Source: a virus
IMG/VR virus record: IMGVR_UViG_3300042893_001701
Coordinates: 5,982-69,981 of that record
Direction: 5' to 3' (one strand)
Length of the DNA: 64,000 bases
This document shows, one piece after another, positions 185 to 63,907 of this stretch. Below the pieces are notes generated by a model. The model saw nothing but the letters and a program-made list of their open reading frames with translations, made no database searches and was not told where the DNA came from. Position 1 is the first letter of the stretch. Each line of letters starts with the position of its first letter. Made by a program: the position numbers and the translations under genes.

Positions 185-185
185 G

Positions 186-653: not shown

Positions 654-1153
654 TACTTCGCTCCTACGTATTTACTTAATAAATCTCCTGCGGCTTTAAC
701 AACAGTTTCAACTGTTTGTGTTACCACTTCTTGACTTACAATTGGTTTAGGTAATGTTGGTGTAACACTTGCACTTCCTTCAGAAACAACAGGTTTAACT
801 GTCATTAACTTAGTAAACTCTTCTTGTAAAGATAGTTTATCTTCAATTGGAAGTTTAGATGCAATGACAATATACGACAATGCCTTGAATGTAGCTAGGT
901 TAACTTGTTCTAAGTAACGATCCTTAGCTTCTAATTCTTGGTGTCGTGCTTCTAAAGCATTGTACTTTTGCGCAATGTCTTTGACTAACTGATTAGAGTT
1001 AGATAATTGACCCGTGCTTTGCATACGTAATGCATTGAACTGCAAGATAGACTTAACTTGCACAACAATAAACGTTAGCAGTGTACCTACAGTCACACCA
1101 CCCGCAATTGACACTCCCCAATACTCTTCTAAAAATTGAATAACTTGTTCCAT
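653..1153 (-). CDS. Membrane-anchored coiled-coil protein (holin-like or virion membrane protein)
   Basis: N-terminal TM segment WGVSIAGGVTVGTLLTFIVVQV followed by a heptad-like region; RBS AAAGGAGG. Confidence 0.7.
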   Translation of the reverse strand: MEQVIQFLEEYWGVSIAGGVTVGTLLTFIVVQVKSILQFNALRMQSTGQLSNSNQLVKDIAQKYNALEARHQELEAKDRYLEQVNLATFKALSYIVIASKLPIEDKLSLQEEFTKLMTVKPVVSEGSASVTPTLPKPIVSQEVVTQTVETVVKAAGDLLSKYVGAK

Positions 1154-1169
1154 AAATTATTCCTCCTTT

Positions 1170-2069
1170 CTATTTAGTCTGATTTTGACCAGTTACCTGG
1201 TTCGACACAGTCGACCATTGTTGAGACGTCCATCGTGTTGGATCATTACCATACAAAGTTGTCATCTGACGGATGGTTTGTTGATAAGCATCACCTGCAT
1301 CAGAGGCAGCCATACCAGCAGCAACTTGACCTCGTTGAGCAGACTGTGCTAAGAAGTCTGTATATGCTTGGTCTTGTGAAGTGTTCATACCAATTTGTGC
1401 TTGTAGTCTTTGATCATTTAACATTTGTGCATTTTGATTTAATGTATTAACATTCGTCATTAGCATCTGCATGTCTTGGTTTGCAATTTGAGATTCACTC
1501 ATACCAGCTCTTAATCGTGCCATACGTTCTGATCTTACTTGGTCTGTAATTTGTTTAACAGTACTTGCTTGTTGTAATGCTGCTTGCTGGAATCCTACAT
1601 CGGCCATTGTAGCAGCTTGCTGTGCTTGGTTAGCATAAGATTGTTCTAGTCGACCTAACATGTCTGCACCAGAAGTTCCAGCATCTAAAGAATAAAGATC
1701 ACGATAGTATTCATTAAAGGCTGATGTTTGGCCTGGTTCACTTTCAGGTGCTGTAAGACCTCTAGATCCTTGTGTTGTAAACCCAAACTTGCTTGGGTTT
1801 TGTGCAATGATACGTTCTTGTGCTTCAATCACATTATCCATTCGGTCGCCTTCAACACCACCACCAACGATACCTAAAGCGTTAATCTGTGTTCTACTTA
1901 AAGGTCCTCCGTTTTCATTAATTTGTGTAATTAATGTTTTAATTTCACCTTCTGTTAAATTAAAATAAGCATTAGTTCCACCCAAAGAAGTACTATACGT
2001 TGTTCCATCTACATCAACAGTAGATGCACCACCAAACTGTTGTAGATTAAGTCTAAATTTTAACTTCAT
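1170..2069 (-). CDS. Putative internal virion/ejection protein with N-terminal Prp-type cleavage motif
   Basis: Gln/Ala/Gly-rich helical composition typical of podovirus ejection proteins; lies downstream of the nozzle gene; starts MKLKFRLNLQQFGG. Confidence 0.6.
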   Translation of the reverse strand: MKLKFRLNLQQFGGASTVDVDGTTYSTSLGGTNAYFNLTEGEIKTLITQINENGGPLSRTQINALGIVGGGVEGDRMDNVIEAQERIIAQNPSKFGFTTQGSRGLTAPESEPGQTSAFNEYYRDLYSLDAGTSGADMLGRLEQSYANQAQQAATMADVGFQQAALQQASTVKQITDQVRSERMARLRAGMSESQIANQDMQMLMTNVNTLNQNAQMLNDQRLQAQIGMNTSQDQAYTDFLAQSAQRGQVAAGMAASDAGDAYQQTIRQMTTLYGNDPTRWTSQQWSTVSNQVTGQNQTK

Positions 2070-37651: not shown

Positions 37652-40600
37652 TTATTTTAATATCATAGCTTGTGATTGTCTGTAACGCACGTACTGTCTC
37701 CATTGAATGTTCTTAACTAAACGATATGGATTAGTAGTAGGTCTACGCATACGACCATATTTATTAAACCAATCTCTATAAATATTTTCATATTTTGCAT
37801 ACCTACCATTACGTCCGTAACGATAACGTCGTGGTGTATACTTTTCATAGTTTACAATATCATAAGCAAAACCTCTAAGGGTTCTTCCTAAAGTTGCTTG
37901 TCTTGTATCCAGCATTTCACGCAATACAGGAATTCTAGCAGCTTGTTCTCTTAACTTAGTGCCTGCTGCCAAATCACTTGCACCTGTTACAGTGTTAGCA
38001 ATTCTACCAATTAAACCTAAACTAGCAAGTTGATTTAAAGATTCAAAAACATTTCTTTTTTCTACAAGTGTTTTAACAGCGCGTAAAATAGGAGATATTC
38101 TACCTTCAAATGCTTCTTGTGTATTGTATAAAATATTCATTATATCTAAGGCACCATTGCCAATACGTAAACCAAAATTTTTACTTAATGGTATCCAACC
38201 ATTACGCATTTGGTATTTCATAAAGTCATCATATTCTTTTTCTTCTTCATCAATATATTGTCCATACCAACCATCAAAAAAGTCAGACATAAATCTCCAC
38301 CATCTAGGATTATTTAAACGGTCAATCCAGTTTTGTATTGAACGTACAGGGAATGATACGAATGGAATATCAGCAAGTAAACGTTGTTCTAAAGGTGATC
38401 TTAATCCATAATTAAACCAACTACGTAAAGAAGCAGTAACAGACTCATCAAAAGTTTTATTGTATATCATTAAATTATATAAGAAGTTTGTTATACGAGC
38501 ACTGTTTTCAATCTTAGTATTAATGTCATCATATAAATTAATTAAAGCGCTTGATAAAGTTTTAAAAGGAAAGAAACCTTTTCTATCTCTTCTAATTTTT
38601 CTAGCATCTGTAATCATTTTTTTAATTTCTTCATAAGTATTTGTACTTGTATCGTTGTCATCATACCCACGATATCTTTCAAAAACTTCTGGAAGAAGTT
38701 CAAAATTATCTTTACGTAAATAATCTGATGTAGCTGATGTGTACATAAAAGCACTTAATTGTTTTAGTATATCTTTTTTCCATTTATTATCTTCACCACT
38801 AATAAGTTTAGATAATGAAGGCGCATTTGTACGCACGTTATTATTTTCGTCCCGTGAATCAATTCTTAAACCAGCAATCATCTTGCCATTTATTTCACGG
38901 TTATCATATAGTTCAATATATTCACCGAATTTAATATTAGATATTAAAGTAACAACATCGTACAATGTTTCTTTATATTTATCTACATTTTTAAAATTGA
39001 TTTGTTTTATAATTCTTATTAAACGCTCAACTTTATTTAAATTAAATTTAACGCGTGGGTTATCTATTGTTCTACCAATAGTATAATAACTTTCTAAAAT
39101 TTCTTTCATCAAGTTAATATTTTTTTCGATAACTTTAGCATCAGGTACAGGCATTTTTAATTGATTTAAAATATCTTCATAATATAAACCAGCACTAACA
39201 ATTGTTGCTGTATGTTCGTCGCTATATTTTTCATAAAGATTATATAGTTCTAATGATGTCATTGTCATATGCGTAAAATCTTTAGAGTCAACTACCTTAG
39301 GAAGTATTTGCGCGTTACTAAATAATTGATACACAGTATCGTTTAAGTTTCTGAACAAGAAAGCTGCACTAAACTTAGAAACATTCTTAGAAAAAATTTG
39401 TAACTTCCATGCAAACTTTTCAAGTCCATTAGGAATTATTGTAGACTTATATGTATTCTCCATTGTTTGCATCCAAGTATCCAAATCAATAAAACCAATA
39501 ATAGGTCTTACACCTTGGTCATTGTTGCCTCTAGCAACTTCATAAATTTCTTTTAGTTCACTTAAACTTCTAATAGGTATTTCTTTATACGTAGGAGTTA
39601 AAGCTCTATTGTTTTCTAGTATAATTTTAGGATCAATTTTTTCATAGACCTGACCATTAAAAACAATTTTTCCTCCATCTGTTTGCCACTTTTTAAGTTC
39701 TTCCATATTATTAAACTTCAAAGATTTAAATTCTTCTTCTGTAAACTTAGTAAATAGTTTAGTCTTTGTATCCTTATTAGGATCAAACTTTCTTATTTGA
39801 TCAACAATAGAACGGTAAGCACCTTCATCTTCATAAGGAGGTTTTACAATAACTAAACGGAAATCACCTTGACGTTCTTTCATGAAGTTATAAATAATTT
39901 TAAAACTTAAATCTAAATTATTAGAATCAATCATGTTAGTTAACAAGGTAACATTGTTAGTCATTTCTAATGTAGATCTTTCACGATTTTTATTTAAATC
40001 TTCTTGAGTTAAATACCGTGGTTTACCAACACTACTATCGCCCATTCCATATCCATCAACAGTTCTTAATAATAAAATACCACCACCAATATTATTTAAT
40101 ACTGCATTTTGTAACGCGTTTGTTTTAATTTCTTCTTTGTCTTTTTCTAATTGTTTATTTTCTTCTTCTAATTTAGCAATAGGATTTTTGTTTTCTGCAT
40201 ACCAAGCTTTAATTCTTTCAATATTTTGAACAGCTGTTTTTAATTTGCTTTGTTCTTTTTCTTGCAACTTAATTTTATTTTCAGTTTCTTTAATAAGCTG
40301 CTCGTTACTTGATTTTTTATTTTGAAGCTCTTCTAATTTAGCATATTGCTTTGCATTAGCAGTGTCGCGAATAGCATTACGTACACGTCTTGTGCTTAAT
40401 TCATTTTGTGCAGTAGTTTTTAAATTAAGTTTCTTTATAATTTTTTTAGTATTTTTTATTTGTTCTTCAATATTATCTGTTGAAGTTAAAATTAAATCTA
40501 TTTCAGTTCTAAAATTATTAATAACGTCATCAATCTTTTCTATTTCAGAATTAAAAGTAGAGTACTTTAAACGATCTGTTATATCTTTAGATACTTCAGG

Positions 40601-43600
40601 CATTGTAGCTTCTAATAATTCATCAGATGTTTTTGAAATAATAGGACCGTTATTACTACCAGCAACGCTTACACTTAAGTGTACGTCGTTGTGTTCACTA
40701 ATAGCTTCTTTAATATCCTCATCTAATAAATCATCTTCTGGTGTAAATACAGTACGATTACCTTCTTCATCAACAATAAACCAACCTTCAGTCATATCAT
40801 TTACGTTTTGGAAAAAGTTATAAATAATAGTTTCTTTACCATAACGATTTTTAAAAACTTCCATAAAGTTAGGATCTCTTAAACGATACATTAAAGATAA
40901 AATGTTACGGGTATTTTTTACTAAGTTAACTTTATTTATATCAAGTTTATATTTACTTACAAACCGTTCACTTACTACATTAGCAATTGATAAAACATCT
41001 CGTAAAAATGTAGATAGTTTATAGAAAGGAATATTCATTGATTCAAAAAATCTAATACTATTTATTAAATCATTTGAATATTGCATATAATTAACAGGAT
41101 TTATTAATGCATTATTTAATTGAATAACTTTATTAAACATTGTAGTAACAAAAGTATCAGGCATAAATAAATTTCCTAATAAAAATAACTTAGCACGTTC
41201 AACAATTAAAGCATTAATATCATTTAGTGCTGGCTTTTCTTCTGTGTAATTTTCTTTAAGAGATACATGACTATCAGGATTTTGTTCAAAGTATTCTTGG
41301 TTAATACTTCCTGATCCAATTTTATCTAGTTTTAAATCAATACGCTCACGCATATTTCTATCTGTATTAATAGCCATACCAAATAAACTTTCAATATTAT
41401 TACTACCTAATATAATTTTTCTAATACTTTTTTTAGTGGTAATTTCATCAACAGCTTGTCTATTTAATAATGAACGTTGGTTAGGATTTGTATCAATACC
41501 ATCATGTTTATTCATAGATATATCTTTTTGAATTAATCGAGACATATTATTCAACGCTACACGTTCAATAACAAACTGATTTAAATAACCACTCATTAGT
41601 TCTTCTATACTTTCTCTACCATTTAAAAAACCATTAAGTGTTTTAGGATTATTAAAGTAAAACATTAATAATTCTTTAACAAAGCTATTAGATATTGTTT
41701 CTTCGGGATTATATTTACTCAGTTGTTTAATGTAGTTAGCAATAACAGGATCATTAGTTTTACTAGAAGACTGCAAGAACGTTATATATTCTCTATAAGT
41801 AACAGTGTCTTGGTTAACTAAATCAGAAAGATTTTCCAGCTCAACAAATCCTTGTTTGTATTCTTCTACAAGTCTAATTAAATCATTAATAATTAAAGGC
41901 ACATCTTTAACAAAGAAACGCATGCTACCTTTAGGATTATTAATAGCACTGTTACCTGTCTTACCCGTTTGTTTAATAGTTGTTAATAAATTTAAAATTT
42001 CGTCAGGACTTAAATCAGTAACATCTTTACCTATGATAGCTTTTAATAATGAAGCGATAGTAACTTCGCCTTCTTGGTTAGCTGCAGCTCCAATAGATTT
42101 CCAAAACTCACCTGTTTTTGATAAGTTAATACGTGGATATATTGAAAGGAACGAGGATATAAATTGATCTTTACGTTTATTACCTGTGTAATTAACACCA
42201 TTTTTAGAAGCACGACCACGGCTTGTAGTAAATTGTTCAATCTTTTTAGTTAAAACAAAACGAACAAATCGTTTATAAAGACGTGCAAATTCAGGATCTT
42301 TATCATTTGTAATAATATTTTGTTCTTCTTCTGTAAAGTATTTTAAATAGACATCAGTAAGATCTTTATTAAGTTTTACATCGTTACCAAACATTACTTT
42401 ATTTTGTGTTAAAGCAGCTTCTAAAGTATAAAGTAAATCAATGTTTTCTTTATTAGTATTGTAATATTCTAATACCTTTTTATTGTCTTGGTAATCATTA
42501 ATTGTTTTAATAACACCAGCAAAGTCATTGCCTTGATTAGTCATTCTAATATGCGCATTTACGTATACTTTTAAATTAGCAGTATTAGAAGTATCTAATT
42601 CAATAATAGTATTCTTAACTGTTTCCCCAAGTTGAGCTAGTATATCTGGTTCAATTAAAACATACTCTTCGATTTCTAGATATTCTTTATTAGGTCTTAC
42701 ATCTTTATTAAATGTATTTTTACCTGTTTGGTTACGAGTAAATTTATAACTAATTAAATCAACGTTACCAACTTTATGTTCGTTTTTAATTAAATCTAGT
42801 TCTTCTTTTCCAAACATTTCTTCATTAGATTTTTCAAGATAGCTCACAAGATTAATTACATTACCTTTACTATCTTTCTTAACTTCTTCATCATAAGTGT
42901 AGTAATTTAAGTCAGTAGAAAGCAAATTTTTTAACGGAGCATCAGGACCTTCTACATCATTTATTTTTAACAAAGCCATACCTAAAGCATCACCGTCGTT
43001 ATCAGCACCCATCATGTTATATGCATAAACGTTTATATTAGCAGCGTAGGATTTACTATAACCTATAGCTTTAAAGACAGGCACAGCTGCATAATCTTGA
43101 ACTGGTGAACGAGCAGCTAGTAAATATGTATACGTTTGTTTTATAATTAGTGCACTAAGTTTGTTTACATCTGTTACATTCGCTTTTAATTCTTTATATA
43201 AAGCTTCGTTTTCTTTTGCAAAAATACCACGAGAGTTTAAATACTCTTCACGTTCTTCATCTGTTTTATAAGTTAAAGCAGTTTCAATGTACTCTTTAAT
43301 TTTTTGTTTGTTTGTTAACTCTTCAGTTTTAATTAACGTACCACCATCACGTTGGTTACGTTCTTCAATAGCTTTCCAAGCAGATTCAGATAAATTAATT
43401 TCACCGGCGTCAAGAGTAACATCAGCAAGATACTGTTGTCGTATACCTTCCCAACGTTTAAACGTAGATTTATAATAAGCACTTTGTTTACCGTCATACA
43501 TTTTTTGTAAGACGTTACTTTCTGTATTAGTAACTAGCTTTTCAACTTCCTTTTGATAACCTATTGTACTGTTATTAGAAGTATGGATAAGCAATAATAG

Positions 43601-46600
43601 TTGTAAGTATTTAATACCTTGGTTTCTTACATACTCATGTATTTTTTTATTCTGAAAAGCTTTTGATAATAAACTTATATATTTTTCAAAAGCTTCTTCA
43701 CTATTTACGTCTTCTTCTTTTTCAAGATTAATCGCTTCTTTAATAACAGTTTTAAATCCTAAAGCACGTACATCACTTAATAAGTTTAAGTTACTGTAGT
43801 CAGGGTTAAATACTTTAAAGAAGTTATCTTTACCAATTTTTGTAAATATTTGATTCATTACTGTAGGTGATAAAGACTGACCTTTAATTGGGTTATTATT
43901 ACCATCTACAATAGTTCTAATTAACTTACCAACTGCATTAACTTTAGTGATTGTTTGCAACGCTTGTGCAGTATTTTCATGGTCTGCATAAACGTATAAC
44001 AAACCTCTGACATATTTGCTTTCTGTTAAGTTGCTAATAATATAACGACGTTCATGTAGTTTATTTTGATCTGTGTCAGTGTCTAAATCTTTCTGATTAA
44101 AAATAGCAGGTTTAACAATTGTAGGTGTAACAACTTGTATACCTTTTAAATCGGTGATATCTTTTTCTTTATAATCTCTCAATAAAAGAACTTGATATAA
44201 TTTTTCTTTACTTATACCTGTAAATTCTGGCAGGTTCCCTAACTTACTTTGAATAACATCTGATAATTCTTCAAATATTTCGTAAGTTGTTTTACCGTCA
44301 ATTAACATAATATTATCTTTACCAGACTTAGTAATTAAAGGTAAAAATACTTTTCGTAAGTGTTCGTCAATAAGTTTAAAGTAACTTTCAGTGCGTTCAG
44401 GTACAACACTGTTACCACGATTATCAGTTTCTTTAATTAAATAAGCACGGATATAGTTAAATAACATTTCAGCATAAGCACCAGCAGTACCACGACTAAA
44501 GACTGAATCAGCAGATGCAGCAAAGTATGCACCATATGTCTTGTATAAGTTTGGTATATATCTTACAGCTCCTTTAAAGCCGTAGTGCAATCCTAACCAA
44601 GTCTTATTACCTTGCCCCCAGTTAGTTGCTCTAGCCCAATCAGCATCAATTGCGATAACGTCTAAAGGAATTCGTGGGTCTTTAACAAAAGCTACAGGTA
44701 CTGTGACCCCAAATTGGTGCACCATTGAATCTTTTTTATATTCATTGTATAAACTTTCAGACATAATATTAGGCATAAAAATTTGAGTATTAGACGTTTT
44801 AGTCTTTCGTATGAACTGATCGCTTATTGTTTTATTATTTAAATATTTAATAGGGTCTGCTAAAAATGTTTCTAATAACTTTTTACCAGGCGCTTGTTTT
44901 TCTTTAATATCTCCATAAATATTATTAAGAAATCCTACTGTAGTATACTTAGCTAAAAGATGTTTAGCACTTAGCATTGTACGAATAGAGTTTGTCATTA
45001 ATGTAAATGGAAAATTAAAATCATACTTAGTTTTATATTTAAGCACAGCACCCATGCTACCGTCAGAGTTTAATCCAAGATCTATTTTTTCTTCTTCTAA
45101 AAATTTAGCATCAAAACTGTCTAAGTTATAGTCATAACTGTAATCAGAATTTATTTGATTGATTAAGGATCCAGGTTCTAGTGCTTTGTACTTAGCTGTA
45201 ATACGGTTATAAATACCTGAATATATTTCTTTTATATTAATTGCTGTTAACTTTTGATTAGATTGATATAAAGAAAGTTCTGCAAAAAATTGATTTTTAA
45301 TAATTTTAGATATGTTAATAACTTGTAAATAATTATAGTTACCTGCAAACTTTTCATGGGTCAAAGTACTGTCATATAATTCTTTAATAATTTTAAGCTT
45401 ATCGTCTACTTGTGCTTTAGTATCATCTTTTTTAAAGTTAACAAACTTGTCTTCACTTTTAATAATCCATTCAATTAGTACTTTAATTGCATCTTTGCTA
45501 GAATCTTTACCCTCTGAAAAATGTAATTCATCTTGTTTTAAGTTAGGAATAATAACAAGTTTTTTATCACTCTTAGTATCTTGCCAATAGAAGTGTTTGT
45601 TTTCATTAATAAATTCTTTTAATTCATTAACAGTAAATTGATAACCTTTTTTATTTTTAGGGTTTAACGCTACTTCTATTTTCTTTTCTTGTATTTGAAA
45701 ACCTTTACTAGTACCACCAGAATATTTTAAATGTGCAGGAATGTAACCGTATTTTAAATTAATAGTTAAAGTATTTGATTTTGCATTGTATACAACATTA
45801 TTTGCTTCATTGTATTCTTGATCTAGTACCGTAAAAATATAAGTATTATTAGTTTCGTCAGTAGCATCTTTAATAACTTTACTTAATACTGTATTTGAAA
45901 CTGTTCTTAAAACTTTAATATCATTTCCTTTAGTAGGATCGTCATACATTACTTTAACGCCTTCTTTTTTTAGAAGTTTGTCTTGGTCTATTTCTTCTTG
46001 TGGTAAAATACGTGATGCTACATCTTCATATTGTTCATCAGTCATTCTATCAGATGGTATTTCACCCGTAATTAAAGTTAATATTGATTCATTTTTAATA
46101 CGTTCAAGATTATCTTGAATACCAGTTAATGTATGAAGGACATCTTTGTATACTAAAAGAACAGCATCAGTTGACTTTTCTTCTAAGGTACGATCACCTT
46201 TATAGTTTTCTAAAAATGTTTTTGTTTGTAGTAAAGCTGTATAACGATCGTTTACTAAAGCTTTAAACACTTCAAACTCATTGCTAAAATTATCTTTTAG
46301 TAAGTCGTCAAATTTAATACTTGTATACTTTAAACTTTCTTCATAGGTGTTTAAAAGTCTTGTTACATTTGTAACAATAGCTGTGTTAGATTCAAAGAAT
46401 TTTTGATTATTATCAGTAGCTTCAGTAATAACATTATAAATAGTTTTAATTGTTTTATAATCAGCTACTTTATTATTAAATAAAATCTCACCATCTTTAA
46501 CTGAAACCCCTTTGTAATCTCTAATATTTAAAAGATTCTTTAAAGATTCAATAAGTTCTGTTTTAGTTTGTTTTAAAATAATCGTATGATCTTTTATAAA

Positions 46601-49600
46601 CTCTTCATAAACTATTTTAAGTAAAGCAACAACACCGGTGTCTTTAATATTTTCTTCAGCTTTATTAAGAATACTTAGTTCTTTATTAATTTGTTCTAAA
46701 GCATCTTCTGGTTTTAATGTACCATCTAATACTTGAACTAATCTAGAATCTATTGTTTTTTCAAGCGTCTTTTTTAATTTATCTTCGCTAAGATCTTTGC
46801 TACTCAACATTGTGCTTAAGTTTAATAAAGCTTGTACTTTATTTTGAAGATTATTAAAAGCTACCTTTTGTTGATTTTCAAACAACGCCAATGATTTAGG
46901 ACCTGTAGAACTACCTATGTTTGCGGTAATATTATTTAAAGCAATACCAATAGTTTTAGCATAACCAAAACTATTGTTGTTAATTTTACGTGCAACATCT
47001 AGTATCTTTAATAAAATTTCTTCATTAGAAACTTTTAAAGTAGCTTGTTCTTGCTGTAAACGTACAATTAATTTTTGACCTTCTTCAATAGTTTTATTTA
47101 TTTTATCTAGTTCTTCTTGACGTGCAAGTACAATTTCATCTGATGTAGCACCTAACTTTAAAGCTTCTATTAAATTATTATTAGCTAATATTGCAACATC
47201 AATTAATTCTAAACGTTTGTTAACATCTAAAGCATCACCTTCTTCATACAACTTAATGCCTGTTTGACTAATTGCTTCTAATGTAATCTCTGTTTTAACT
47301 GTTGTTCCTGCTTTAGTTGCACCGTAATCAATTTTTAGTGCACCACTTAAATACTGGTTATATGTGTTTGTTACATCAACAATTAATTTTTCTACATACT
47401 CAATAATAATTTTTTGAATAGCAGGGTTTCTATTATTTAAACTAATACCTTCCATAAATTTAAGTATTAAATCTTCTTTAATACTGTTTTGTTCTATAAT
47501 ATCTTTTGAATTAATATGCTTTAATAAAGAATCGTTAATGTATTTAATTGAACCTGTAGATACATCCATAATTTGTTTACGAATATTATCATTAATAATA
47601 TAGCCAACTTGTTCAGATGCATATCTTACACGTTGTTTTATTTTTAACTCTGCTGTTTTTCTATTAATTAAATTTAAACGTTTCTTAAAAATATCTGCTT
47701 CTTGTGAGGTCAACAAAGGTAAACGTTCATTTAATTGTTTAATTGTATCAGCATATTCTTTTTGCAAAGCAACTAAATATTCTTTAGTAATTTCATCATC
47801 ATTTAAATCAGTTTTATCTATGTTGTCAAATATTTTTTTAACATCTGTTTCTTCTCTTAAGTTACGATAGTATTCGTTTACAATTAAATTTTCTCCAACA
47901 CGTGAAACAAAATCTTTAATTAAACTAAAATCAAAACGATAACCGTTATGTGCTACGATATCTACACTTTGATCACCAATAAGTTGTAAGAAAGTATTAA
48001 TAAAGTTATCATTGTTTTTGACATTTCTTACACGTGTAATTAACAAGTCCATTTTTTCTTTTGCTTTAATTTCAAAATTTTCTTCTGTTAAGTTTTCGTT
48101 TTTCCATTGTTCTTTCCATATAGATTTTTGTTGTTCATAAAACTTAAGCATGTTTTCTTTATAAGATCCATCATCATTTAAACCATCAAAGAATAAAGCA
48201 CTGTTAATAAATACATCGTTAATAATAACTTCATCATTCTTTTCGTAAATCATTGTCATTTGATAAGGTTTGAATTGTCCGTCTTGTTTGTAAGTTTCTA
48301 AGTCAACCACTACAAAGTTTTTAGCATTTGGTTTTTGATGTATGTAATTTAAAAACGTAATTAAAGAGTCTACAATAGAGTTGTGTAAAGCGTAATCACC
48401 GCGTGACATAATTTGTTTTTTAATAACATCTACATTAAAGTTCTTATAACGTGACTTTAATGTTGATAAAACAATATCAATAACATCAGATTCTTCTTCA
48501 TCTTCTTTAATTTTATAATAGTGTTTAAATACGTCAATGTTAGATAGTTTATCTCCAGCAACTTCAAGTTCTTTTTTGTATAACATTTCACGTTCAGCTC
48601 TTATTTTTAATAAAGCTTCTCGTTTTTCTTGAAGTAAAACTTTTAAGTCAGCTATATTTTTTTGAACTTTAGGCACATTTAGTAATTCATCTTTTACTTG
48701 AGCAATATCATTTATTTGACCGACAATAGCATTTTTATTTTCATTAGCTTGTTTTAATTGACCGCTAGATTTATTATTAGCAACAAAACGAATTAATGAT
48801 TCTAATGTAGCATTGTTAATATCTAAAGTAGGGCCACCTAGTGCAGCATATAAACTATTAAATAATTTTTTATTATTATCTGAGTCATTAATAGTAGGTA
48901 CTTTTTTTACACGTTTTAATATGTCATCTTCTAATAAAAGATCTTTAGTTGTAAGCTCCCATTGCTTAATTAATTTTTCATTGTTTAAAATAATTTCATC
49001 AATATTGTTATTATATAAGTTATTAATTTTATTATTAACAATTGATAGCAAAGATTCTGCGTGTTTTAATTGATCTATTGTTAAACCTGATAAATTAATA
49101 TTTATATTTTTACTTCCGAAATCAGACTTAATAGGCCTATAACTTTCTTTCTTTTGAGCAACACTCATTAAAAGATTGTAAGCTACTAAAGGATCTGTAA
49201 TATTTTCAAACAAACGTTCTGTGTCTTCTGTTATACGTTTTACTTCTTGATTAGTTAATAGCCCGCCTAATTGTAATTCACGTTTTACAAGTTGTAATTC
49301 TAAAACAGTATTAAAGTATAAGTTAATTTTAAATTCATTCTCACCTTTTAATTCTGTTAATGTAATAGCTTCTGTAATATTAATTAACTTTTTAGATTTA
49401 AGATTTTCAAGATGCGTTTTTAATATAGCTGTTTCATTTTCAATAGCTTTAATTAAAACAAAAGGCTTAATAAGCGTATCTTCTGTAATTTTACCAAGGT
49501 CTTTACTGTCTGCTCTACCATATGAAATATTAAAAGCACGTACTAACATGTACGCTTTTTTAAGGTATTTCATTTTTTCGTTAAATTGTTTATTGTGTCT

Positions 49601-52600
49601 GGCTTGAATTAAATCTTTTGCAGTTTCTGTTAATTCTTTAAAGTTATCTTTACGATCAATAGTATCAAAAGTTCTGGTTAAATCAATTTTACCTTCTTTT
49701 TTAAAGTCAGTTATAAGTTCTGTTAATGCGTTTAAAGCAAAGTCAATTTGATCTACATCGCCCAGACGTATATTGTCTCTTTGTTCTTTTAAGCTTAAAA
49801 TCTTTTCATCAATAATAACACGTTTATCTTTGTAAGAAACATAAGTAAATTTTTTACTTGTTATTTTTAAACCTTTACCACGAGCATCTCTTTGATCTCT
49901 TAAAGCATTTAGTTTATCTATAATCTTTTTATTGTTAATATCTTTATAAATATTAAATAAATCTTTAACATTATTAACTTCGTACACTGCTAGTTCATCT
50001 TTGTAAAAATCAAACAACGTATCAAAAATAACATTAGCAGGTGTGTTTGTTTTTATAAAGTATTCAAATTCTTCATTTAATAATTTGTATATTTTAAATT
50101 CTTTAGTAGCTTCAATAGCTTTAACTTCAAGATCATCTTTTAAATAAGCTTCGTATTCTTTAACAATTTTTGATTCATATTCATTTTTAAGTTTGTCTAA
50201 TCTAAGTTGTTGTTTACCTAATTCAAGATTAATTTTATTTTCTGCACGGTCTAAAAAGAAGTTTCTTAAACCAGGATAAAGTTTAAATAAGTTATTAATT
50301 AATTCAAGTTTCTTTTCTTTAATAATTTTTTCTTCTTCTTTTACTTTTTGATCTGCTTCCACTAATTTTTCTTGTAAAATAAATGTAGCTAAGTCAGCTT
50401 GATCATTAATATCTTGTGGTATATTTAAAGGTCTAACAGCATCATAAACATAATGACTTGGTGCATCTTTAATAGTAAACAGTGTATTTTGCCTATCTAA
50501 TCTTCTGGCATTTGCTGTACTTGTATCTAAAGAACTTTGCATTTTAATAACAGTTTTATCTAAAGCATCTATTTCTAATTCTTCATTTGCTTCATCTTGC
50601 ATTTTTATTGTAGTTGCTGCACCAATTCTATTTTTCTTACCATAAGCAACATCAAATGTGTCATACCATTGTTTTGGATTATAAAAGTTTTCGGAAGCAT
50701 TAATAAAGTTATTAATCTTTAAACCTGTTTCAATGATTGATTTTTGTTCAACACTTAATTGATCAAATGTTTTACCTTGTAATTTAGCCAACTCTTCTTT
50801 TTTTTCAAGATTAGTTTTATCACTTTTAATGATACGATATATAACACTTGTAATAGTTTTAAACTTATAGTTTTTATACTGAAGATCAGTCTTAAGTTGA
50901 TCTTTAATACTTGCAGCTAATTTATTTTGAATTTCAGGTATGTCTTTACTGTCTACAAAACGGGCAGTAAAAATATATCCTATAACAGCTTTAATATTAC
51001 TGTCATTAAATTCAACAATCTTATTGTTATTATCAGATATACTAATAATTTGTTTAACACGTTTAGCTAACTCTGCATCAAATTCATCTGCCAATACATC
51101 AGGACTTTTTTTAGAACTTGAATTATTAACGATGTATTCTTTTTTAGCTTCTGATACTAAATAGTTATACTGTTCAATAAAGTAATTAACAGCACTCTTT
51201 TCTTTTAAAAATAAACCAACTGCAGTTGCCACGTCTCGTACTCTTATAAACTCGTAAGGTTTAAAGTCTTTTTTAATAAATGCTAAAACATCAGTAAAGT
51301 TGTTTCTTATTGAATTATATAAAACGTTTGAACTTCCTACATCTTTTGTTTTAGATGAGTTTTCTGCCATCATATCTAAAACAAAGTCTTTACGCATCAA
51401 CATAAGTTCATACATACGTCCACCAACAAAACCGGCTTCACCTTCTCTAAATAAAGGTTCGTATAATGTGCGTTGAGTTTCTGTAGCTACTGTTTTAATA
51501 TTATTTTCTTTATAAATAATCCCATGACGCGTGCCAGTGTACTCATCATTATCTTTTAAATTAGTGCCATCAAGTATAATACGTTGTAAACGATCGTTTA
51601 AAAAAGTTACTCTTGAGTTTATTTTTCTTAAAGTAACAAATCCTTTATTAAAGTAAAAGTTAATACTATTAGTAATAGCATTACCGTCACCTAAAACATC
51701 ATTCATGTTAATTGTTTTATAATTTAAGAAATTATTTTTATCTCTTAATTTTTCATAGTATAAAACTTGTTTAATTTTATCTGCATCTAAACCATAATCT
51801 TTTATATTTAATTTATTTTCAATAAATTGTTGTTTATGATAATTAATAAACAACATTAAAACAGTAGCTTTTGTGTAGTCTTCTGTAGACAACTTATCTT
51901 TTTTAGCAGTTTCTATATTTTTTACATGCGCGTTAATAAAGTGAGAGATATCTTCATACTCACCTTCTAATATAGAAAACACTTCACTTCTAGTGATGCC
52001 GAACTTATTCATAACCTTAACAATTTCTTCGGTATCAGTATCGTCACTATAGTTTCTAATAACATCTTTAAAATAATCTAAGAACTTTTTACTGTTTTCT
52101 AATAAGTCTAATGTATGAACTTCATAAATTTCTTTATAACTTAGTTCAACTTTTTTAATTTTATAAGTACCTTTTTTTATAGCAGATACTTCATTTATAA
52201 ATAAATTAATTGTTTCTTTAGTTAAGTCATCGCTATCAGTTAACATTTTTTTATATTCACTTGTGTCTGTAATAATACGTCCAGTAGATATATTAGCGTT
52301 TCCAACGTCAAACATTACTCTTATTTGAGCTTCTGTAAAACCTTTAGCAATCATTTCTTTTTTAAGGGTATCTGTTTTATTAATTGTTTTTTCAAGTGTA
52401 CCTAACTCTGATACATAACGTTTAGTTTCTTTAGTTTCTTTAGAATATAAGTATTCTGTTGCAGTTAAAATAACATCACTTGCTAAATCTGTTAACGATA
52501 AACGATCAGCATTATCTAAAGAATACCCAAATTTCTTTAAAACATATTGACTAATATATTCATCAATTTTAATGTTTTCAACTGGATCTAATTTATTTTC

Positions 52601-55600
52601 TGCTAATTGCTTTTTAACTTTCTCGGCATCAGGTGCTTCGTAACTAAACATTTTTGATGTATCATTACCTTTATAAATTAAATGCTCGTTGTTATAGGTA
52701 TATCTTACAGCGTTGTCTTTAATTATATTAGAAGCTTTTAATCGGGCTCTTATTTCTTTTAAAAGAATAGTTTCCTGTGCTGTAATACTATTATCTTTTT
52801 CTTTAATTCTTAATAAACTTTCGTTATGAGTTAATAAATTAAGATAATCAACATTATTATAACCATCTAATTCGTTAGTAATGTTTCTATCCATGAATTG
52901 TTTAATAGACACTAAGTAAGATTTAATAATATAACCATATATTAAATGATCAGCAATACGTTCAGCGCTTGTATAACCATCTTTTTTATTTTTTTCTTGC
53001 TCATATATTTTTGTAGCAACAGCATAAATAGACTCTTTTACTTTTTCTGGTACAACAAAAAGTTCTTTTAATTTCTTGTAAAGAGTTTCACTATTGATGT
53101 TACGATTATTAAAATCTCTGAATAGTGTTCTAATACTTGTAAAATTTAAATAGTTAATACTATTGTTTTTATACTTTTTATGTAATACATAATGTCTTCT
53201 TTTAGCAGCATTTACTAAATCATGTAGTGTTTTTAAATAATACTGCTGTGCGTTTAATACACTTAAACCCTGTAAGCCGGCGTAAATATTATTTTTTACA
53301 CCATCAAATAGTTTAACTGGGTCGTATTCTTTTTTATAAGGATCTTTAAATGCAGTATCTAAAACACTGTAAAATACCTGATTTACTTCATTGTATAGTA
53401 CATTAAATGTTTTTATATTAGAAGAAGATACTTCATCACTTAAAGATGTTTGTATATGCTTTTCAATAATAGGTACAATTTTTTGATAAGCCGTGTTGTT
53501 TGTTCTTTCAATGTATTTAACAATACCGTAAATAGAATTTTTAAGTTTTAATAATTCTGAAATGCTATCAGGAGTTAAGATATTAAAGTAATTTAATTTA
53601 TTTAATAAAGGACTTCTTCCATATTCATTTTGTAGATACTGTAAAGCATTAACAATCTTATTAAATAAACCTCTACTTTTTAAACGTTGTACTAATTGTG
53701 CGTTTAAATCTGTTTCAATATTATTTAAATTATAGTCTGCATTAATAAACTTACTGTTAAAAAAGTTAACACCAATTGTATGAATATCATAATCTTCTTC
53801 TCCGATTAAATTATAAAAGTCAAAAAATATAGTATTTAACTTTGCACTTTCTACAAGTTTTTGAAATGGTTGTGTATTAAATAAGTTAACACCGTTACCA
53901 TAAGCTTTTAAAATAGGTACAAATCCTTGTAGATTTTTTTTACTATAACGTAAAGCATAAAATTCACTTAACTTTTTAAGTACTTCAAAGGCAGAGGTTT
54001 TATTGCTTGTGTCTAAACTTTCTTTAAATACTAAATTAATATCGTCTAACCAGTAATCTACAATAACTTTGTTACCTTGTACGTTAATGATATCGGGTAT
54101 AGGTACAATGTTATCGTCATCTATTTTATGTATATCAATAGTAGGTACATCAGATTGTTTAAGCTTTCCTAACTCTTGTATTTCAGCGTATTTACTTTCA
54201 GATAATACGTAAACTTCAATAACATCTCTTTCTCCAGTTTCATAATTGTTATTCATTACTCGTTTTAAAACGGTTGAAATAGATTTAGTATTATCAAAAC
54301 TCCAGTTTTTATCAGGAACAACTACAACCGCACTGCCATCATCTGTTACAATACGTACGTCAACATTTTTTACTTGTTCATTTTTTGCAACACGATCTTG
54401 CATTAAGGATAATAAGTTAGAATCATTATTTTTTAAAGCTTTAATTAATAAAACGTTAAGCGTAGGAATACCTTTACCATCATTTCTATCTTTGTAATCA
54501 GGTATATCTTTAGTACGGTAAAGTTTAGGTTCTCCTGCTTTGTTATATGCTAAAGCAAAATCATCACCATCTGTATTTACTACGTTATTAAAATAACGTT
54601 CAGCTACTTCTGGATCTTTAATCATATCTTCTAAAATAACATCAAACTTATTAAAAGGATCTACTGTAATTTTACTATTAATTTCTTTATAAAATTTAAT
54701 TAAATCATTATAGTTTTGTTTTCGTATCTTATACATATTAACAGTACGTTTATATATAACAGATCCTTTATCAATACCTTCTCTACTTTGGTATTCTTTT
54801 AGGTCTTCATTTAATTCTTTAACAAACTTTTCGAGTCTAACAATATTAGTATTTTGTGCTTTACCTTTAACAGCTTTAGAATCTTTAAAAAATATATCTT
54901 TAATAATAGTTTTAATAGCTTCGGGTTTAATAAATACTTGTTGACGTATACCATCATCTGGACGTTTAATACTGTATCCTTTAAATTCATCAGCATTTAA
55001 CTGTGTTAACTGAAGTAAAGTTAATAGCAGTAAAGTGTTTTTATTTCTAAGACTACCATTTTTATTGGTAAGACTTATTGCAAACATTTCTTTTTTATTA
55101 TCATCTTTATCGTAGGCATAAAATACAAATTTAGGATTTACAGGTTTACCACTTGTTAGATCATCGTTGTATTTAACAAGTGCATTATCAATATATAAAC
55201 TGTAACTGCGATAGCGGTTATCATAATACATATTAAAATCTATTTGATTTGTATTTAAATCTTGTTCAAAAATATTATTTACTAAACGTAAACGTTGTCT
55301 TAGTTCGGTTACACCAGGATCTGTAAATAACTTATAAATTTCTTCTGTAGCTCCTTCTTGTTTCATAAATACTTCTTTACTGATGCTAAAAGCATTATTA
55401 GTTAACAGGCTGCCATACTCTTCAATCAACATATCGTAGCTTGCTAACGCAGCTGCGATAAGATCTTTAACTTGATTAGATGTTTTAGATGCAGCTGTTC
55501 TTAACCCAACAGTTTCTACAAAACGGTTAAAGTCAGTTCTTGAAAGACCGTGAATAAATATCATGTCAAACACAGAGTATTGTACAACTTTATTGTTAAC

Positions 55601-61240: not shown

Positions 61241-61248
61241 TTATAGCA
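61240..61248 (-). promoter_or_regulatory. Extended -10 promoter (TGCTATAAT) of the giant gene
   Basis: Perfect TGnTATAAT 11 nt upstream of the ATG at 61228. Confidence 0.6.
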
Positions 61249-61249
61249 T

Positions 61250-61285
61250 AAAAAAACCACCGCAATCAATGCAGTGGTCTTTTTT
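61250..61285 (-). terminator. Intrinsic terminator of the capsid unit
   Basis: ACCACTGCA-loop-TGCGGTGGT followed by a T-run on the minus strand. Confidence 0.75.
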
Positions 61286-61301
61286 ACTATTTGTCTACAA
61301 A

Positions 61302-63691: not shown

Positions 63692-63907
63692 ATAAGCCTC
63701 CTTGTTTTTGTTAGATCTCACGTGACAACGTATTGTATGCAGATCCGCTTTTAATAAAAAACGCCAGAAAGATAGCATTAAATAACATAACGAGAAACTG
63801 TTATATTACTTCACTACTCATTCTGGCGTAAGCATCCATGTATAAATTGCCGAGTTTTACACACTTCGATCTGGACACTAAAGTAGTCCGCTACTATCTA
63901 CACGTAT

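What the first reader, a model, noticed from the sequence alone, without database searches (positions are those of the whole stretch)
42950..44720. Complete two-barrel RNA polymerase core hidden in a 7,862-aa phage protein: candidate giant virion RNAP
Seen, in order along the protein: FGVTVPVAFVKDPRIPLDVIAID; GNKTWLGLHYGFKGAV (44564-44611); SADSVFSRGTAGAYAEML; YVRGLLYVYADHE; KGQSL; KRWEGIRQ...LDAGEINLS; LAARSP (43103-43111); NMMGADNDGDALG (ADNDGD at 42989-43006, about aa 6079-6084). Known: these match E. coli beta LGQNMRVAF...EDSI, GDKMAGRHGNKGV (NTP-binding lysines), NPLGVPSRMNIGQ, VGYMYMLKLNH and GGQRF, then beta' KRVDYSGR, NRAP and NADFDGD. The Arg-to-first-Asp spacing is 36 residues versus 35 in beta'. 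Inference: beta- and beta'-type barrels are fused in one chain, as in crAss-like phi14:2 gp66 and SPbeta YonO, but inside a much larger protein encoded next to the capsid gene. It is probably packaged and ejected to transcribe the early + strand arm.
Basis: partly seen in the sequence, partly recalled or inferred. Interest (0 to 1): 0.95.

Follow-up and report, generated by a model that had tools for sequence, protein, structure and literature searches.

The report
Giant phage protein hides RNA polymerase
An uncultured phage spends a third of its genome on one 7,862-residue protein that contains a complete, cell-type RNA polymerase core, so the phage probably carries its own transcription enzyme into the host, as a few other phage groups are known to do.

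Summary
Observation confirmed.

Pfam, PHROGs, NCBIfam, PDB sequences and GenBank phages give no significant match to any part of the protein. An AlphaFold2 model of aa 5451-6650 is confident (pLDDT 84.4, pTM 0.80).
- Its best structural match is the single-chain two-barrel polymerase QDE-1, across both barrels (Z 11.2).
- The N-terminal part matches second-largest RNAP subunits (Z 10.3).
- The C-terminal part matches largest subunits (Z about 11) and Thermus phage RNAPs.

The two lysines, the Arg-x-Pro and the DxDGD aspartates are invariant in the 21-22 relatives aligned.

The virion role is inferred, not shown. The gene follows the capsid gene in 6 of 6 genomes. The protein and its 7 full-length relatives have no cysteine at all, like other virion proteins of this phage and phi14:2 gp66.

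It is a new, unannotated family and a new architecture of a known kind (crAss gp66, P23-45 gp96). This scan has noted many giant phage two-barrel RNAPs on other DNA, none similar in sequence to this one.

The parts
37652..61240 (-). Giant ORF, 7,862 aa from TTG 61240 (7,858 aa, about 903 kDa, pI 8.5 from the likelier ATG at 61228); no cysteine
   Evidence: full-length relatives of 7,661-7,998 aa
41330..44815 (-). Two-barrel RNA polymerase module, aa about 5476-6637 (model residues 26-1187)
   Evidence: AF2 pLDDT 84.4; QDE-1 7y7p_A Z 11.2, rmsd 4.4, 314 aligned, model 59..1174; 579 of 978 Foldseek-ranked chains reach Z >= 8, and the 50 rows shown are RNAP largest subunits or QDE-1
43955..44815 (-). 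Beta-like barrel (DPBB-A), aa about 5476-5762, with invariant G5511, D5527, D5532, S5579, R5583, D5753
   Evidence: ASFV RPB2 homologue 8q3b_B Z 10.3, rmsd 3.1, 165 aligned, model 26..312; Pol I A135 4c2m_B Z 9.6; bacterial beta 6j9e_C Z 7.9; invariants
44570..44605 (-). K5546-T-W-L-G...G-F-K5556-G: the two invariant lysines of the beta-like barrel
   Evidence: Both lysines invariant in 21 of 21 sequences that cover the site. This motif was not used to find those sequences.
43463..43867 (-). Helical connector of about 135 residues between the barrels, aa about 5792-5926
   Evidence: Helices at model 342-465. gp66 and QDE-1 have a connector of about 140 residues (passages of bioRxiv 10.1101/2020.03.07.982082). 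Equivalence is inferred.
42803..43462 (-). Beta'-like catalytic barrel (DPBB-B), aa about 5927-6146, including invariant R5934 (GIRQQ)
   Evidence: phiKZ nvRNAP 7ogp_A Z 9.2 (model 476..696), AR9 7s00_d Z 9.9, and isolated DPBB domains (VAT-N, CDC48-N) at Z 6.6-7.9 on model 479-685; P. furiosus 8cro_A Z 10.6 on model 477..696
43094..43111 (-). R6044-S-P6046-V-Q6048-D: Arg-x-Pro strand preceding the catalytic loop
   Evidence: R, P and Q invariant in 22 of 22 sequences. Part of this motif was used as a search pattern for 11 of them.
42989..43003 (-). D6080-N-D6082-G-D6084: metal-binding aspartate loop
   Evidence: Invariant in all 14 relatives that span the site and in 22 of 22. It was a search pattern for the loci.
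42155..42289 (-). 45-residue helix, aa 6318-6362, with invariant T6338, R6341, K6346, G6353, K6357: candidate bridge helix
   Evidence: Helix at model 868-912; invariants. The assignment is inferred, because the tools give no residue-level superposition.
47876..48388 (-). DEDD-exonuclease-like motifs (D4313-x-E4315-T; H4431-N-G-x-x-F-D4437), aa about 4285-4455; third motif not found
   Evidence: Invariant in 7 of 7. The profile against PDB gives only sub-threshold rows at the ExoII motif of family-B DNA polymerases and TREX1 (E 0.036-0.3). No Pfam hit.
60230..60292 (-). The only strongly hydrophobic 19-mer of the chain (aa 317-337), inside a Gly/Ala-rich N-terminal region (G+A 22% in aa 1-500 against 6-11% elsewhere)
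37655..38440 (-). Most conserved part of the chain, aa 7601-7862, ending in an Arg/Tyr/Lys-rich tail; fold not predicted
   Evidence: Conservation 0.5-0.72; many invariant residues; AF2 pLDDT under 50 here
61246..61290 (-). Terminator-like hairpin between the 112-aa ORF downstream of the capsid gene and the giant gene
   Evidence: dG -20.6 kcal/mol, z -7.3, 0 of 200 shuffles fold as well. The consensus terminator scan did not list it.
61709..63778 (-). Major capsid protein gene, directly upstream on the same strand
   Evidence: phrog_1357, E 2.9e-15; same arrangement in 5 of 5 relatives checked

Best explanation
**What it is.** Residues about 5476-6637 of the 7,862-aa protein form a single-chain two-barrel (double-psi beta-barrel) nucleotide polymerase of the QDE-1 / crAss gp66 / P23-45 gp96 kind. 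A beta-like barrel carrying two lysines is followed by a helical connector of about 135 residues. Then comes a beta'-like barrel with Arg-x-Pro and the DNDGD magnesium loop, and then a long basic helix that may be the bridge helix. The catalytic set is intact, so I take it to be an active DNA-dependent RNA polymerase.

**How it most likely works.** These steps are inferred.
1. The gene is expressed late, behind the capsid gene.
2. A few copies of the cysteine-free chain are packed in the head.
3. The chain is threaded, partly unfolded, through the tail ahead of or with the DNA.
4. It refolds in the cell and transcribes the first genes of the replication arm, independently of the host polymerase.

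The rest of the chain may supply the functions that other podophages split among several ejection or cargo proteins. These parts are the Gly/Ala-rich N-terminus, a DEDD-like nuclease motif pair, and a conserved basic C-terminus.

**Sub-confidences.** Two-barrel polymerase fold with intact site: about 0.9. Active RNA polymerase: about 0.8. Virion-delivered early transcriptase: about 0.6.
For: **Fold**
- AF2 with 14 sequences gives pLDDT 84.4 and pTM 0.80.
- All 50 Foldseek rows shown are RNAP largest subunits, although E is only 2.4e-3 or weaker.
- The Foldseek-independent search of 48,161 chains ranks QDE-1 first (Z 11.2, 314 aligned, both barrels).
- That search gives second-largest subunits on model 26-312 (Z 10.3 and 9.6), largest subunits on model 380-1187 (Z 9.6-10.9), P74-26 gp62 at Z 8.7 and P23-45 gp96 at Z 7.6.
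- 579 of 978 re-aligned chains reach Z >= 8.

**Catalytic residues**
- 45 residues are invariant over >= 20 sequences at 21-54% identity. They include D5527, K5546, K5556, R5934, R6044, P6046 and D6080/6082/6084.
- The motif regions are the internal conservation peaks of the chain.

**Virion role (indirect)**
- The capsid gene lies directly upstream on the same strand here and in 5 of 5 relatives.
- There are 0 Cys in 7,862 aa and in each of the 7 other full-length giants, against 40 in 8,847 aa of other window ORFs. The other presumed virion proteins have 5 in 4,123 and the non-structural ones 34 in 4,521 (my sums).
- The known virion RNAP phi14:2 gp66 has 2 Cys in 2,180 aa.

**Precedents in print**
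- gp66 is packaged and transcribes early genes (passages).
- gp96 is a 5,002-aa fusion that transcribes pre-early genes (passages).
- crAss001 cargo proteins are thought to pass the tail partly unfolded (passages).
Against: - No sequence method links the module to any known RNAP. Pfam, PHROGs and NCBIfam give nothing. PDB phmmer and profile searches give nothing. hhalign against gp66 gives probability 0.1%.
- The fold rests on one predicted model from a shallow alignment. No Foldseek row reaches E <= 1e-3. Z of about 11 is only moderately above the 7-8 that the tool reports as typical for unrelated best hits.
- Residue-level equivalence of the lysines and the bridge helix to those of RNAPs could not be checked, because no coordinates are available.
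- The K-to-K spacing is 10 (9 in some relatives), against 8 recalled for E. coli beta.
- There are no virion data, no transcript data and no promoter. No repeated early-promoter motif was found.
- A sigma-70-like site directly upstream of the gene fits either timing.
- YonO shows that a phage two-barrel RNAP can be a non-virion, late-gene enzyme (passages).
- Passage of a 903-kDa chain through a short tail has no precedent. The largest cited are 3,500 aa (N4) and 5,002 aa (P23-45).
Confidence: 0.6

Rival explanations
1. It is a real two-barrel RNA polymerase, but it is not packaged. The giant protein is made in the infected cell and transcribes middle or late genes, as SPbeta YonO and P23-45 gp64 do. 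Alternatively it organises a replication and transcription compartment.
For: - YonO transcribes late genes (passages of PMC5467207).
- P74-26 gp62, a relative of the non-virion gp64, matches the model about as well as the virion enzyme gp96 does (Z 8.7 against 7.6).
- No second phage RNAP was found by the Pfam, PHROGs and NCBIfam scans run here.
- A sigma-70-like promoter site lies just upstream of the gene.
Against: - The gene sits at the end of the capsid gene's transcription unit in 6 of 6 genomes. An enzyme made there comes too late to start its own class of genes.
- The complete absence of cysteine matches this phage's presumed virion proteins, not its replication proteins.
- A 7,862-aa size is hard to explain for an intracellular polymerase. 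YonO and gp64 are recalled as under 1,000 aa.
Confidence: 0.17
2. The two-barrel module is a polymerase of another specificity. It could be RNA-dependent like QDE-1, a primase-like enzyme, or a PolD-like DNA polymerase working with the upstream DEDD-like nuclease. It would serve genome replication, end processing or counter-defence rather than transcription.
For: - The best structural match, QDE-1, has both RNA- and DNA-templated activities (abstract of PMC9508822, listings).
- PolD DP2 (6t8h_B) also matches (Z 6.9, 235 aligned).
- A conserved DxE...HNGxxFD motif pair lies 1,150 residues upstream in the same chain.
Against: - PolD scores well below QDE-1 and the RNAP subunits (6.9 against 9.6-11.2).
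- The phage has its own family-A DNA polymerase, helicase and two primase-like genes.
- The nuclease assignment is itself sub-threshold.
- All characterised phage two-barrel enzymes cited here are DNA-dependent RNA polymerases.
Confidence: 0.1
3. The barrels are a structural relic with no catalysis. The giant protein is only an internal head, ejection or channel protein.
For: The rest of the chain has no enzymatic signature in any library. Related cultured podophages carry a large cysteine-free structural-module protein without any DxDxD motif (API480 gp16, 1,631 aa).
Against: All the catalytic-type residues are invariant at 21-54% identity, and they sit on the conservation peaks of a chain that is otherwise very fast evolving. 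That pattern is what purifying selection on an active site gives.
Confidence: 0.04

Closest known systems
Neurospora crassa QDE-1 (PDB 7y7p, 7y7t; T. terrestris 5fsw): single-chain two-barrel polymerase
   Same: Best structural match over both barrels: Z 11.2, rmsd 4.4, 314 residues, model 59..1174, and Z 11.1 for 5fsw_A and 7y7t_B. It has the same order of beta-like barrel, connector and beta'-like barrel, and a DxDGD-type loop.
   Different: Only 11-12% identity in the structural alignment, and no sequence-level hit. QDE-1 is a eukaryotic RNA-silencing enzyme of about 1,400 aa (length recalled). Here the module is one seventh of a phage protein.
Cellulophaga phage phi14:2 gp66 (crAss-like virion RNAP, PDB 6VR4)
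   Same: A single chain with two DPBB domains and a connector. It is part of a set of giant proteins encoded beside the structural genes, is packaged, and transcribes early genes (passages). It is cysteine-poor (2 in 2,180).
   Different: - hhalign of the family profile against gp66 gives probability 0.1%.
- gp66 did not appear among the 50 rows of the wide structural search, which does not exclude similarity.
- Its motif is DFDID, against DNDGD here.
- It is 2,180 aa and separate from its partner proteins.
- This phage's terminase and capsid genes relate to Paenibacillus and Bacillus podophages, not to Crassvirales.
Thermus phage P23-45 gp96 (tape-measure-fused virion RNAP, PDB 8h2m/8h2n) and gp64 / P74-26 gp62 (non-virion)
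   Same: A two-barrel RNAP hidden in a giant (5,002-aa) virion protein with no sequence similarity to RNAPs beyond the aspartate motif (passages). Structural matches are Z 7.6 (266 aligned) and Z 8.7 (273 aligned), spanning both barrels.
   Different: In gp96 the RNAP is at the N-terminus of a siphovirus tape measure that also carries peptidase and transglycosylase domains. Here it lies in the last third of a chain with no such domains detected. The genome's relatives are podophages.
Coliphage N4 gp50 (about 3,500-aa virion RNAP, Schitoviridae)
   Same: A giant polymerase packaged in a podovirus head and expelled into the host to start transcription (abstracts of PMC13434306 and PMC12633501, listing).
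   Different: The N4 enzyme is T7-like single-subunit (title of reference 36; otherwise recalled), which is an unrelated fold. No T7-like RNAP family hit appears in the giant protein.
Phage 'polyvalent proteins' (Iyer et al. 2017, PMC5512222)
   Same: Very large multidomain proteins thought to be packed in the capsid and delivered with the DNA (passages). [quoted passage not shown]
   Different: Pfam does not detect LPD38 or any other polyvalent-protein domain here. A two-barrel RNAP was not among the passages I read of that paper.

Membership tests
Two-barrel (double-psi beta-barrel) RNA polymerase superfamily | Two DPBB domains forming one catalytic cleft, beta-like then beta'-like | tested here: met
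   On a predicted model (pLDDT 84.4), model 26-312 matches second-largest subunits (Z 10.3, 9.6). Model 476-696 matches beta' barrels and isolated DPBB domains. QDE-1 matches across both (Z 11.2).
Two-barrel (double-psi beta-barrel) RNA polymerase superfamily | Three-aspartate metal loop (DxDGD / DxDxD) in the beta'-like barrel | tested here: met
   DNDGD at aa 6080-6084, between a helix and a strand of the second barrel. It is invariant in all relatives spanning it, with the caveat that it served as a search pattern for part of them.
Two-barrel (double-psi beta-barrel) RNA polymerase superfamily | Two conserved lysines in the beta-like barrel (substrate and RNA 3'-end contacts; their role is recalled) | tested here: met
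   K5546 and K5556 are invariant in 21 of 21 sequences and lie inside the region aligned to second-largest subunits. Residue-by-residue equivalence could not be checked, and the spacing is 10 rather than the recalled 8.
Two-barrel (double-psi beta-barrel) RNA polymerase superfamily | Bridge helix and trigger-loop elements after the catalytic barrel | tested here: inconclusive
   A 45-residue helix (model 868-912) carries invariant R/K/G residues. Alignments to Rpb1 run on to chain residues about 1400-1460. No residue-level mapping is available.
Two-barrel (double-psi beta-barrel) RNA polymerase superfamily | Template-dependent RNA synthesis | not testable with these tools
   Needs biochemistry.
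crAss-like virion RNAP family (phi14:2 gp66 orthologues) | Detectable homology to gp66 | tested here: inconclusive
   hhalign probability 0.1% against the single gp66 sequence. gp66 is absent from the rows shown, which does not exclude a match. BFVD gives only weak rows to pieces of crAss-like proteins (E 0.035-0.13).
crAss-like virion RNAP family (phi14:2 gp66 orthologues) | Crassvirales genome background | tested here: not met
   The best tblastn hits of the terminase and capsid proteins are Paenibacillus phages API480 and SV21 (about 31% identity) and Bacillus Page-like phages.
Tape-measure-fused virion RNAP (P23-45 gp96 type) | RNAP module at the N-terminus of a tail tape measure with peptidase or transglycosylase domains | tested here: not met
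   The module lies at aa 5476-6637 of 7,862. No peptidase, lysozyme or tape-measure family appears in any library. The fold similarity itself is present (Z 7.6).
N4-like virion RNAP (T7-like single-subunit) | T7-like RNA_pol domain (PF00940) | tested here: not met
   No Pfam hit in any segment of the giant protein. The whole-genome family search was uninformative because its controls also rang nowhere.
Virion-packaged (ejected) protein | Presence in purified particles | not testable with these tools
   Only indirect evidence: a late structural-operon position in 6 of 6 genomes and absence of cysteine.
DEDD (DnaQ-like) 3'-5' exonuclease, for the upstream domain | ExoI DxE, ExoII NxxxFD, ExoIII H/YxxxD on an RNase H-like fold | tested here: inconclusive
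   ExoI- and ExoII-like motifs are invariant in 7 of 7. No ExoIII was identified. The profile against PDB gives only sub-threshold ExoII-centred rows (E >= 0.036). No Pfam hit.

The most novel reading that the evidence does not exclude
The 903-kDa chain is an all-in-one ejection machine, possibly among the largest phage proteins. Its Gly/Ala-rich N-terminus leaves the tail first and forms or joins the membrane channel. The cysteine-free body is threaded through unfolded. The DEDD-like nuclease and the two-barrel polymerase refold at the channel exit, so that transcription helps to pull in the genome. The basic C-terminus holds the DNA end. One gene would thus replace the whole set of cargo and RNAP proteins of crAss-like phages. 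One copy each of the five crAss001 cargo proteins sums to about 845 kDa (my sum of the masses quoted). The gene is also exchanged as a 23-kb cassette between otherwise near-identical phages (91% capsid identity against 20-41% in the giant). This suggests that it is a main target of host defence or a host-range determinant.
Probability: 0.2. Interest if true: 0.85.

Novelty: new variant of a known kind. Interest (0 to 1): 0.62.

Why it matters
- **A third background for hidden polymerases.** Injected single-chain two-barrel RNA polymerases are documented experimentally in two phage groups in the papers I read: crAss-like phi14:2 and Thermus P23-45. This finding adds a third, unrelated genomic background. 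These are podophage-like genomes of roughly 70-82 kb whose nearest cultured relatives infect Paenibacillus and Bacillus. It also adds a new sequence family that no annotation library recognises.
- **Wider spread and a larger size.** It supports the view that hidden cell-type polymerases in giant virion proteins are widespread. It raises the known size of such fusions from 5,002 to about 7,900 residues, one third of the genome.
- **Testable side observations.** Total avoidance of cysteine may be a usable sequence signature of proteins that must be threaded through a phage tail. The giant gene is by far the most divergent part of otherwise closely related genomes, which points to strong diversifying pressure or cassette exchange.
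- **Evolution.** The family adds deep-branching sequences to the question of how single-chain two-barrel polymerases relate to QDE-1-type enzymes of eukaryotes.

Tried and rejected
**Sequence searches that found nothing**
- Pfam, PHROGs and NCBIfam on the whole giant protein in three segments gave no meaningful family. Pfam at E up to 10 on four sub-regions gave only noise.
- tblastn against 50,697 GenBank phage records found no match for the RNAP region, the C-terminal 1,212 aa or the N-terminal 800 aa.
- PDB sequence searches with the region gave one chance row. With a 15-sequence profile they gave 0 rows.
- hhalign of the profile against phi14:2 gp66 gave no signal.
- A scan of one genome for each of 185,579 prokaryote species gave 50 pattern matches, none of which encodes a relative. 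No host or prophage was identified.

**C-terminal and N-terminal regions**
- The second AF2 job, on the C-terminal 862 aa, gave a poor model (pLDDT 62.5, pTM 0.40). Its wide structural search returned only generic helical bundles (best Z 7.7, none >= 8). I draw nothing from it.
- The protein atlas on the N-terminal 600 aa gave scores under 0.9 and no family. On the C-terminus it gave an LPD38 lead that Pfam does not confirm.

**Promoters and other polymerases**
- I looked for an early-promoter motif as repeats in 22600-28500. Only short two- or three-copy families turned up, and I treat them as chance. Sigma-70-like sites there are not enriched (20 found against 24.3 +/- 6.0 expected).
- The whole-genome search for a T7-like RNAP family was uninformative, because its controls rang nowhere.

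**Readings rejected**
- A crAss-like phage: the terminase and capsid relatives are Paenibacillus and Bacillus podophages.
- Short stand-alone forms of the polymerase: the 2,051-2,662-aa hits sit on contigs of 7-9 kb and are cut by contig ends.
- An assembly artefact: eight independent full-length ORFs of 7,661-7,998 aa exist.

**Not seen:** supplementary files of the cited papers were not opened. Their domain tables could list related giant proteins.

Full report
**1. The observation**

The window carries a single open frame on the minus strand, 37652..61240, of 7,862 codons. The window is bases 5982-69981 of a 69,981-base linear viral record that CheckV rates 66% complete. The gene therefore takes about a third of the record.

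The coordinates given for GNKTWLG...(44564-44611) and ADNDGD (42989-43006) are exact. The range given for LAARSP covers its RSP core.

By itself D.DGD is not remarkable in so long a chain. It arises in 202 of 2,000 shuffles. With R.P 30-40 residues upstream it arises in 2 of 2,000. What lifts the observation above chance is conservation and fold.

**2. No library recognises the protein**

- Pfam, PHROGs and NCBIfam give no credible family for any of three overlapping segments, nor for four sub-regions at E up to 10.
- tblastn against 50,697 deposited phage records finds nothing for the polymerase region, the C-terminus or the N-terminus.
- phmmer and a family profile against all PDB sequences find nothing.
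- hhalign against phi14:2 gp66 gives probability 0.1%.

**3. The family**

A full HMMER pass over 1.84 billion representative proteins with aa 5451-6650 returns only 19 hits.
- Seven of them are chains of 7,661-7,998 aa, and one is 6,661 aa on a 20.7-kb contig.
- The 2,051-2,662-aa hits lie on contigs of 7-9 kb, so they are truncated.
- Where a source gives a name, it is 'hypothetical protein'.

Pattern scans add 7 IMG/VR loci on contigs of 56-82 kb, all with giant open frames. They also add 14 metagenome loci. They find none in one genome for each of 185,579 prokaryote species.

Along the chain, identity to the other seven large giants (six of 7,661-7,998 aa plus the 6,661-aa one) peaks at aa 5501-5600 (0.66) and 6001-6100 (0.53). 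These are the two motif regions. It also peaks at the two termini and at aa 4201-4500.

**4. Conservation of the catalytic-type residues**

I aligned 22 sequences: 11 and 11 of the 14 loci.
- 45 residues are invariant where at least 20 sequences have a residue, at 21-54% identity to the window protein.
- They include G5511, D5527, D5532, K5546, W5548, K5556, R5583, D5753, R5934, R6044, P6046, Q6048 and D6080/D6082/G6083/D6084.
- They also include T6338, R6341, K6346, G6353 and K6357 on a long helix.
- The aspartate loop and RSPxQD were used as search patterns for part of the set, so their invariance there is partly built in. The lysine motif, R5934 and D5527 were not.
- Of KGQSL, only the glycine is invariant.

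**5. Fold**

AlphaFold2 on aa 5451-6650, with a 14-row alignment, gives mean pLDDT 84.4 and pTM 0.80.

Foldseek against the PDB has no row at E <= 1e-3. Even so, all 50 rows shown are largest subunits of multisubunit RNAPs (Pol I, II, III, ASFV, vaccinia, Thermus), with best E 2.4e-3.

The Foldseek-independent search of 48,161 representative chains gives these matches:

| Chain | Protein | Z | Aligned (rmsd) | Model range |
|---|---|---|---|---|
| 7y7p_A | QDE-1 | 11.2 | 314 (4.4) | 59..1174 |
| 7ob9_A | human Pol I A190 | 10.9 | 287 (5.8) | 385..1175 |
| 8q3b_B | ASFV second-largest subunit | 10.3 | 165 (3.1) | 26..312 |
| 4c2m_B | Pol I A135 | 9.6 | 161 (3.1) | 36..307 |
| 7s00_d | AR9 beta' piece | 9.9 | 183 (6.7) | 418..696 |
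| 7ogp_A | phiKZ beta' piece | 9.2 | 142 (3.2) | 476..696 |
| 8f5m_A | P74-26 gp62 | 8.7 | 273 (4.4) | 57..1170 |
| 8h2m_A | P23-45 gp96 | 7.6 | 266 (5.0) | 39..1153 |
| 6t8h_B | PolD DP2 | 6.9 | 235 (4.6) | 40..713 |

- Isolated DPBB domains (CDC48-N, VAT-N, a designed DPBB) match model 479-685 at Z 6.6-7.9.
- Twenty chains reach Z >= 8.
- Re-aligning Foldseek's top 978 chains gives 579 with Z >= 8, led by Rpb1 and QDE-1 chains at Z 11.0-11.2.
- The viral library gives weak rows to viral RNAP subunits and pieces of crAss-like proteins (best E 5.7e-4).

The tool warns that a best Z of 7-8 is common for unrelated models. Here the top rows are above that and all belong to one superfamily. They also divide the model into a beta-like half and a beta'-like half in the expected order.

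The secondary structure places RSP at the end of a strand (model 584-592) and DNDGD in the loop before strand 635-641. It places the lysines on strands 96-99 and 105-112 of the first barrel. About 135 helical residues lie between the barrels. This is the size of the connector described for gp66 and QDE-1 (passages).

**6. Context**

- The capsid gene (phrog_1357) lies directly upstream on the same strand. It is separated from the giant gene by a 112-aa ORF and a strong hairpin (dG -20.6, z -7.3).
- The replication genes (polymerase, helicase, primase, exonuclease, Sak4-like) are on the opposite strand at 23-37 kb. Terminase and portal lie further along the minus strand.
- In 5 of 5 relatives examined, the capsid gene again sits 0.4-1.6 kb upstream of the inferred start of the giant gene, on the same strand. 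This rests combined with the coordinates; the starts are inferred from ORF ends and lengths.
- The nearest cultured phages by terminase and capsid are Paenibacillus podophages API480 and SV21 (about 31% identity) and Bacillus Page-like phages. API480 has a 1,631-aa protein at the end of its structural module, but without a DxDxD motif.

**7. Indirect evidence for packaging**

The giant protein has no cysteine. None of the other seven full-length giants has one either, and the fragments have 0-6.
- In the same reading frame there are 0 TGT/TGC codons, against 105 and 471 in the other two frames.
- Nineteen other ORFs of the window hold 40 Cys in 8,847 aa.
- Splitting them by my own assignment gives 5 in 4,123 for presumed virion proteins and 34 in 4,521 for terminase and replication proteins (sums).
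- The experimentally packaged phi14:2 gp66 and its neighbour gp67 have 2 in 2,180 and 1 in 1,797.

Cysteine avoidance fits a protein stored in an extracellular particle and threaded, partly unfolded, through a tail, as proposed for crAss001 cargo proteins (passages of PMC10172136). It is a correlation, not proof.

**8. Mechanism proposed**

- Shown on a model and by conservation: a complete two-barrel polymerase core with an intact catalytic set.
- Inferred from the family: DNA-dependent RNA synthesis that is independent of the host RNAP.
- Inferred from gene position, composition and precedent: synthesis late, packaging, ejection and transcription of early genes.
- Speculative: the roles of the N-terminal Gly/Ala-rich region, the DEDD-like motif pair and the conserved basic C-terminus.

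**9. Rivals**

- A non-virion polymerase, as for YonO, which transcribes late genes.
- A polymerase of another specificity, since QDE-1 is dual and PolD matches at Z 6.9.
- A catalytically dead relic.

They are weighed in the Rival explanations section. The main argument against the last is that the catalytic-type residues are invariant in the least conserved gene of the genome.

**10. Novelty**

The kind is known: a single-chain two-barrel RNAP hidden in a giant phage protein and probably injected (gp66; gp96).

New here are the following.
- The sequence family, which no library recognises, whose members are named only 'hypothetical protein', and which has no GenBank phage relative by tblastn.
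- The size, about 7,900 aa.
- The position of the module in the last third of the chain.
- The podophage-like genome background.
- The complete lack of cysteine.

My four literature searches on virion, two-barrel or giant RNAPs in phages listed no paper describing such a protein. I read only listings and passages, and no supplements.

This scan has already logged many giant phage two-barrel RNAP candidates on other DNA (164 notes hold the words), several with exonuclease fusions and one described as cysteine-free. None shares sequence words with this one. I therefore score it as a new variant of a known kind, with interest 0.62.

Noticed in passing
window 37652-61240 (whole giant ORF) and proteins P0002-P0010: Not one cysteine in 7,862 residues, nor in the seven other full-length giants. 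There are 0 TGT/TGC codons in frame against 105 and 471 in the other frames. The other presumed virion proteins of this phage are also Cys-poor (5 in 4,123), unlike its replication proteins (34 in 4,521).
   Followed up: partly
window 37652-61240 against G003 (L013-L016): A collinear relative shares 60-98% protein identity for nearly every ORF (capsid 91%, the 112-aa ORF 94%, DNA polymerase 86%). Its giant protein, however, is only 20-41% identical, and several 500-aa pieces are undetectable. The 23-kb gene is either hyper-divergent or exchanged as a cassette.
   Followed up: partly
window 47876-48388 (aa about 4285-4455): Invariant D-x-E-T and H-N-G-x-x-F-D motifs, like ExoI and ExoII of DEDD exonucleases, lie 1,150 residues before the polymerase. 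No ExoIII was found. PDB profile rows to family-B polymerase exonuclease domains and TREX1 are only sub-threshold.
   Followed up: partly
window 61226-61290, minus strand: A strong hairpin with a U-run (dG -20.6, z -7.3) separates the capsid-side genes from the giant gene. A sigma-70-like TTGATT-18-TATAAT site with an extended -10 ends 11 nt before the ATG at 61228, and no Shine-Dalgarno is evident. This could mean attenuated read-through or a nearly leaderless mRNA.
   Followed up: partly
window 37655-38440 (aa 7601-7862): The C-terminal 260 residues are the most conserved part of the chain and end in an Arg/Tyr/Lys-rich tail. AF2 gives pLDDT under 50 there. The tail might bind nucleic acid or the portal.
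   Followed up: partly
window 61228 against 61240: The mechanical ORF starts at TTG 61240, but relatives align from a methionine that corresponds to the ATG at 61228. The protein is probably 7,858 aa.
   Followed up: partly
window 28411-30111 (+): A 566-aa ORF at the head of the replication arm has no PHROG family. It is 61% identical in the relative G003.
   Followed up: no
window 20305-21891 (-) and 30138-31076 (+): Two separate primase-like genes lie on opposite strands.
   Followed up: no
L003 (Paenibacillus phage API480) 12564-17459: The nearest cultured relative has a 1,631-aa, cysteine-free hypothetical protein at the end of its structural module, with no DxDxD motif. No similarity to the giant protein was found by tblastn of three of its regions.
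   Followed up: partly
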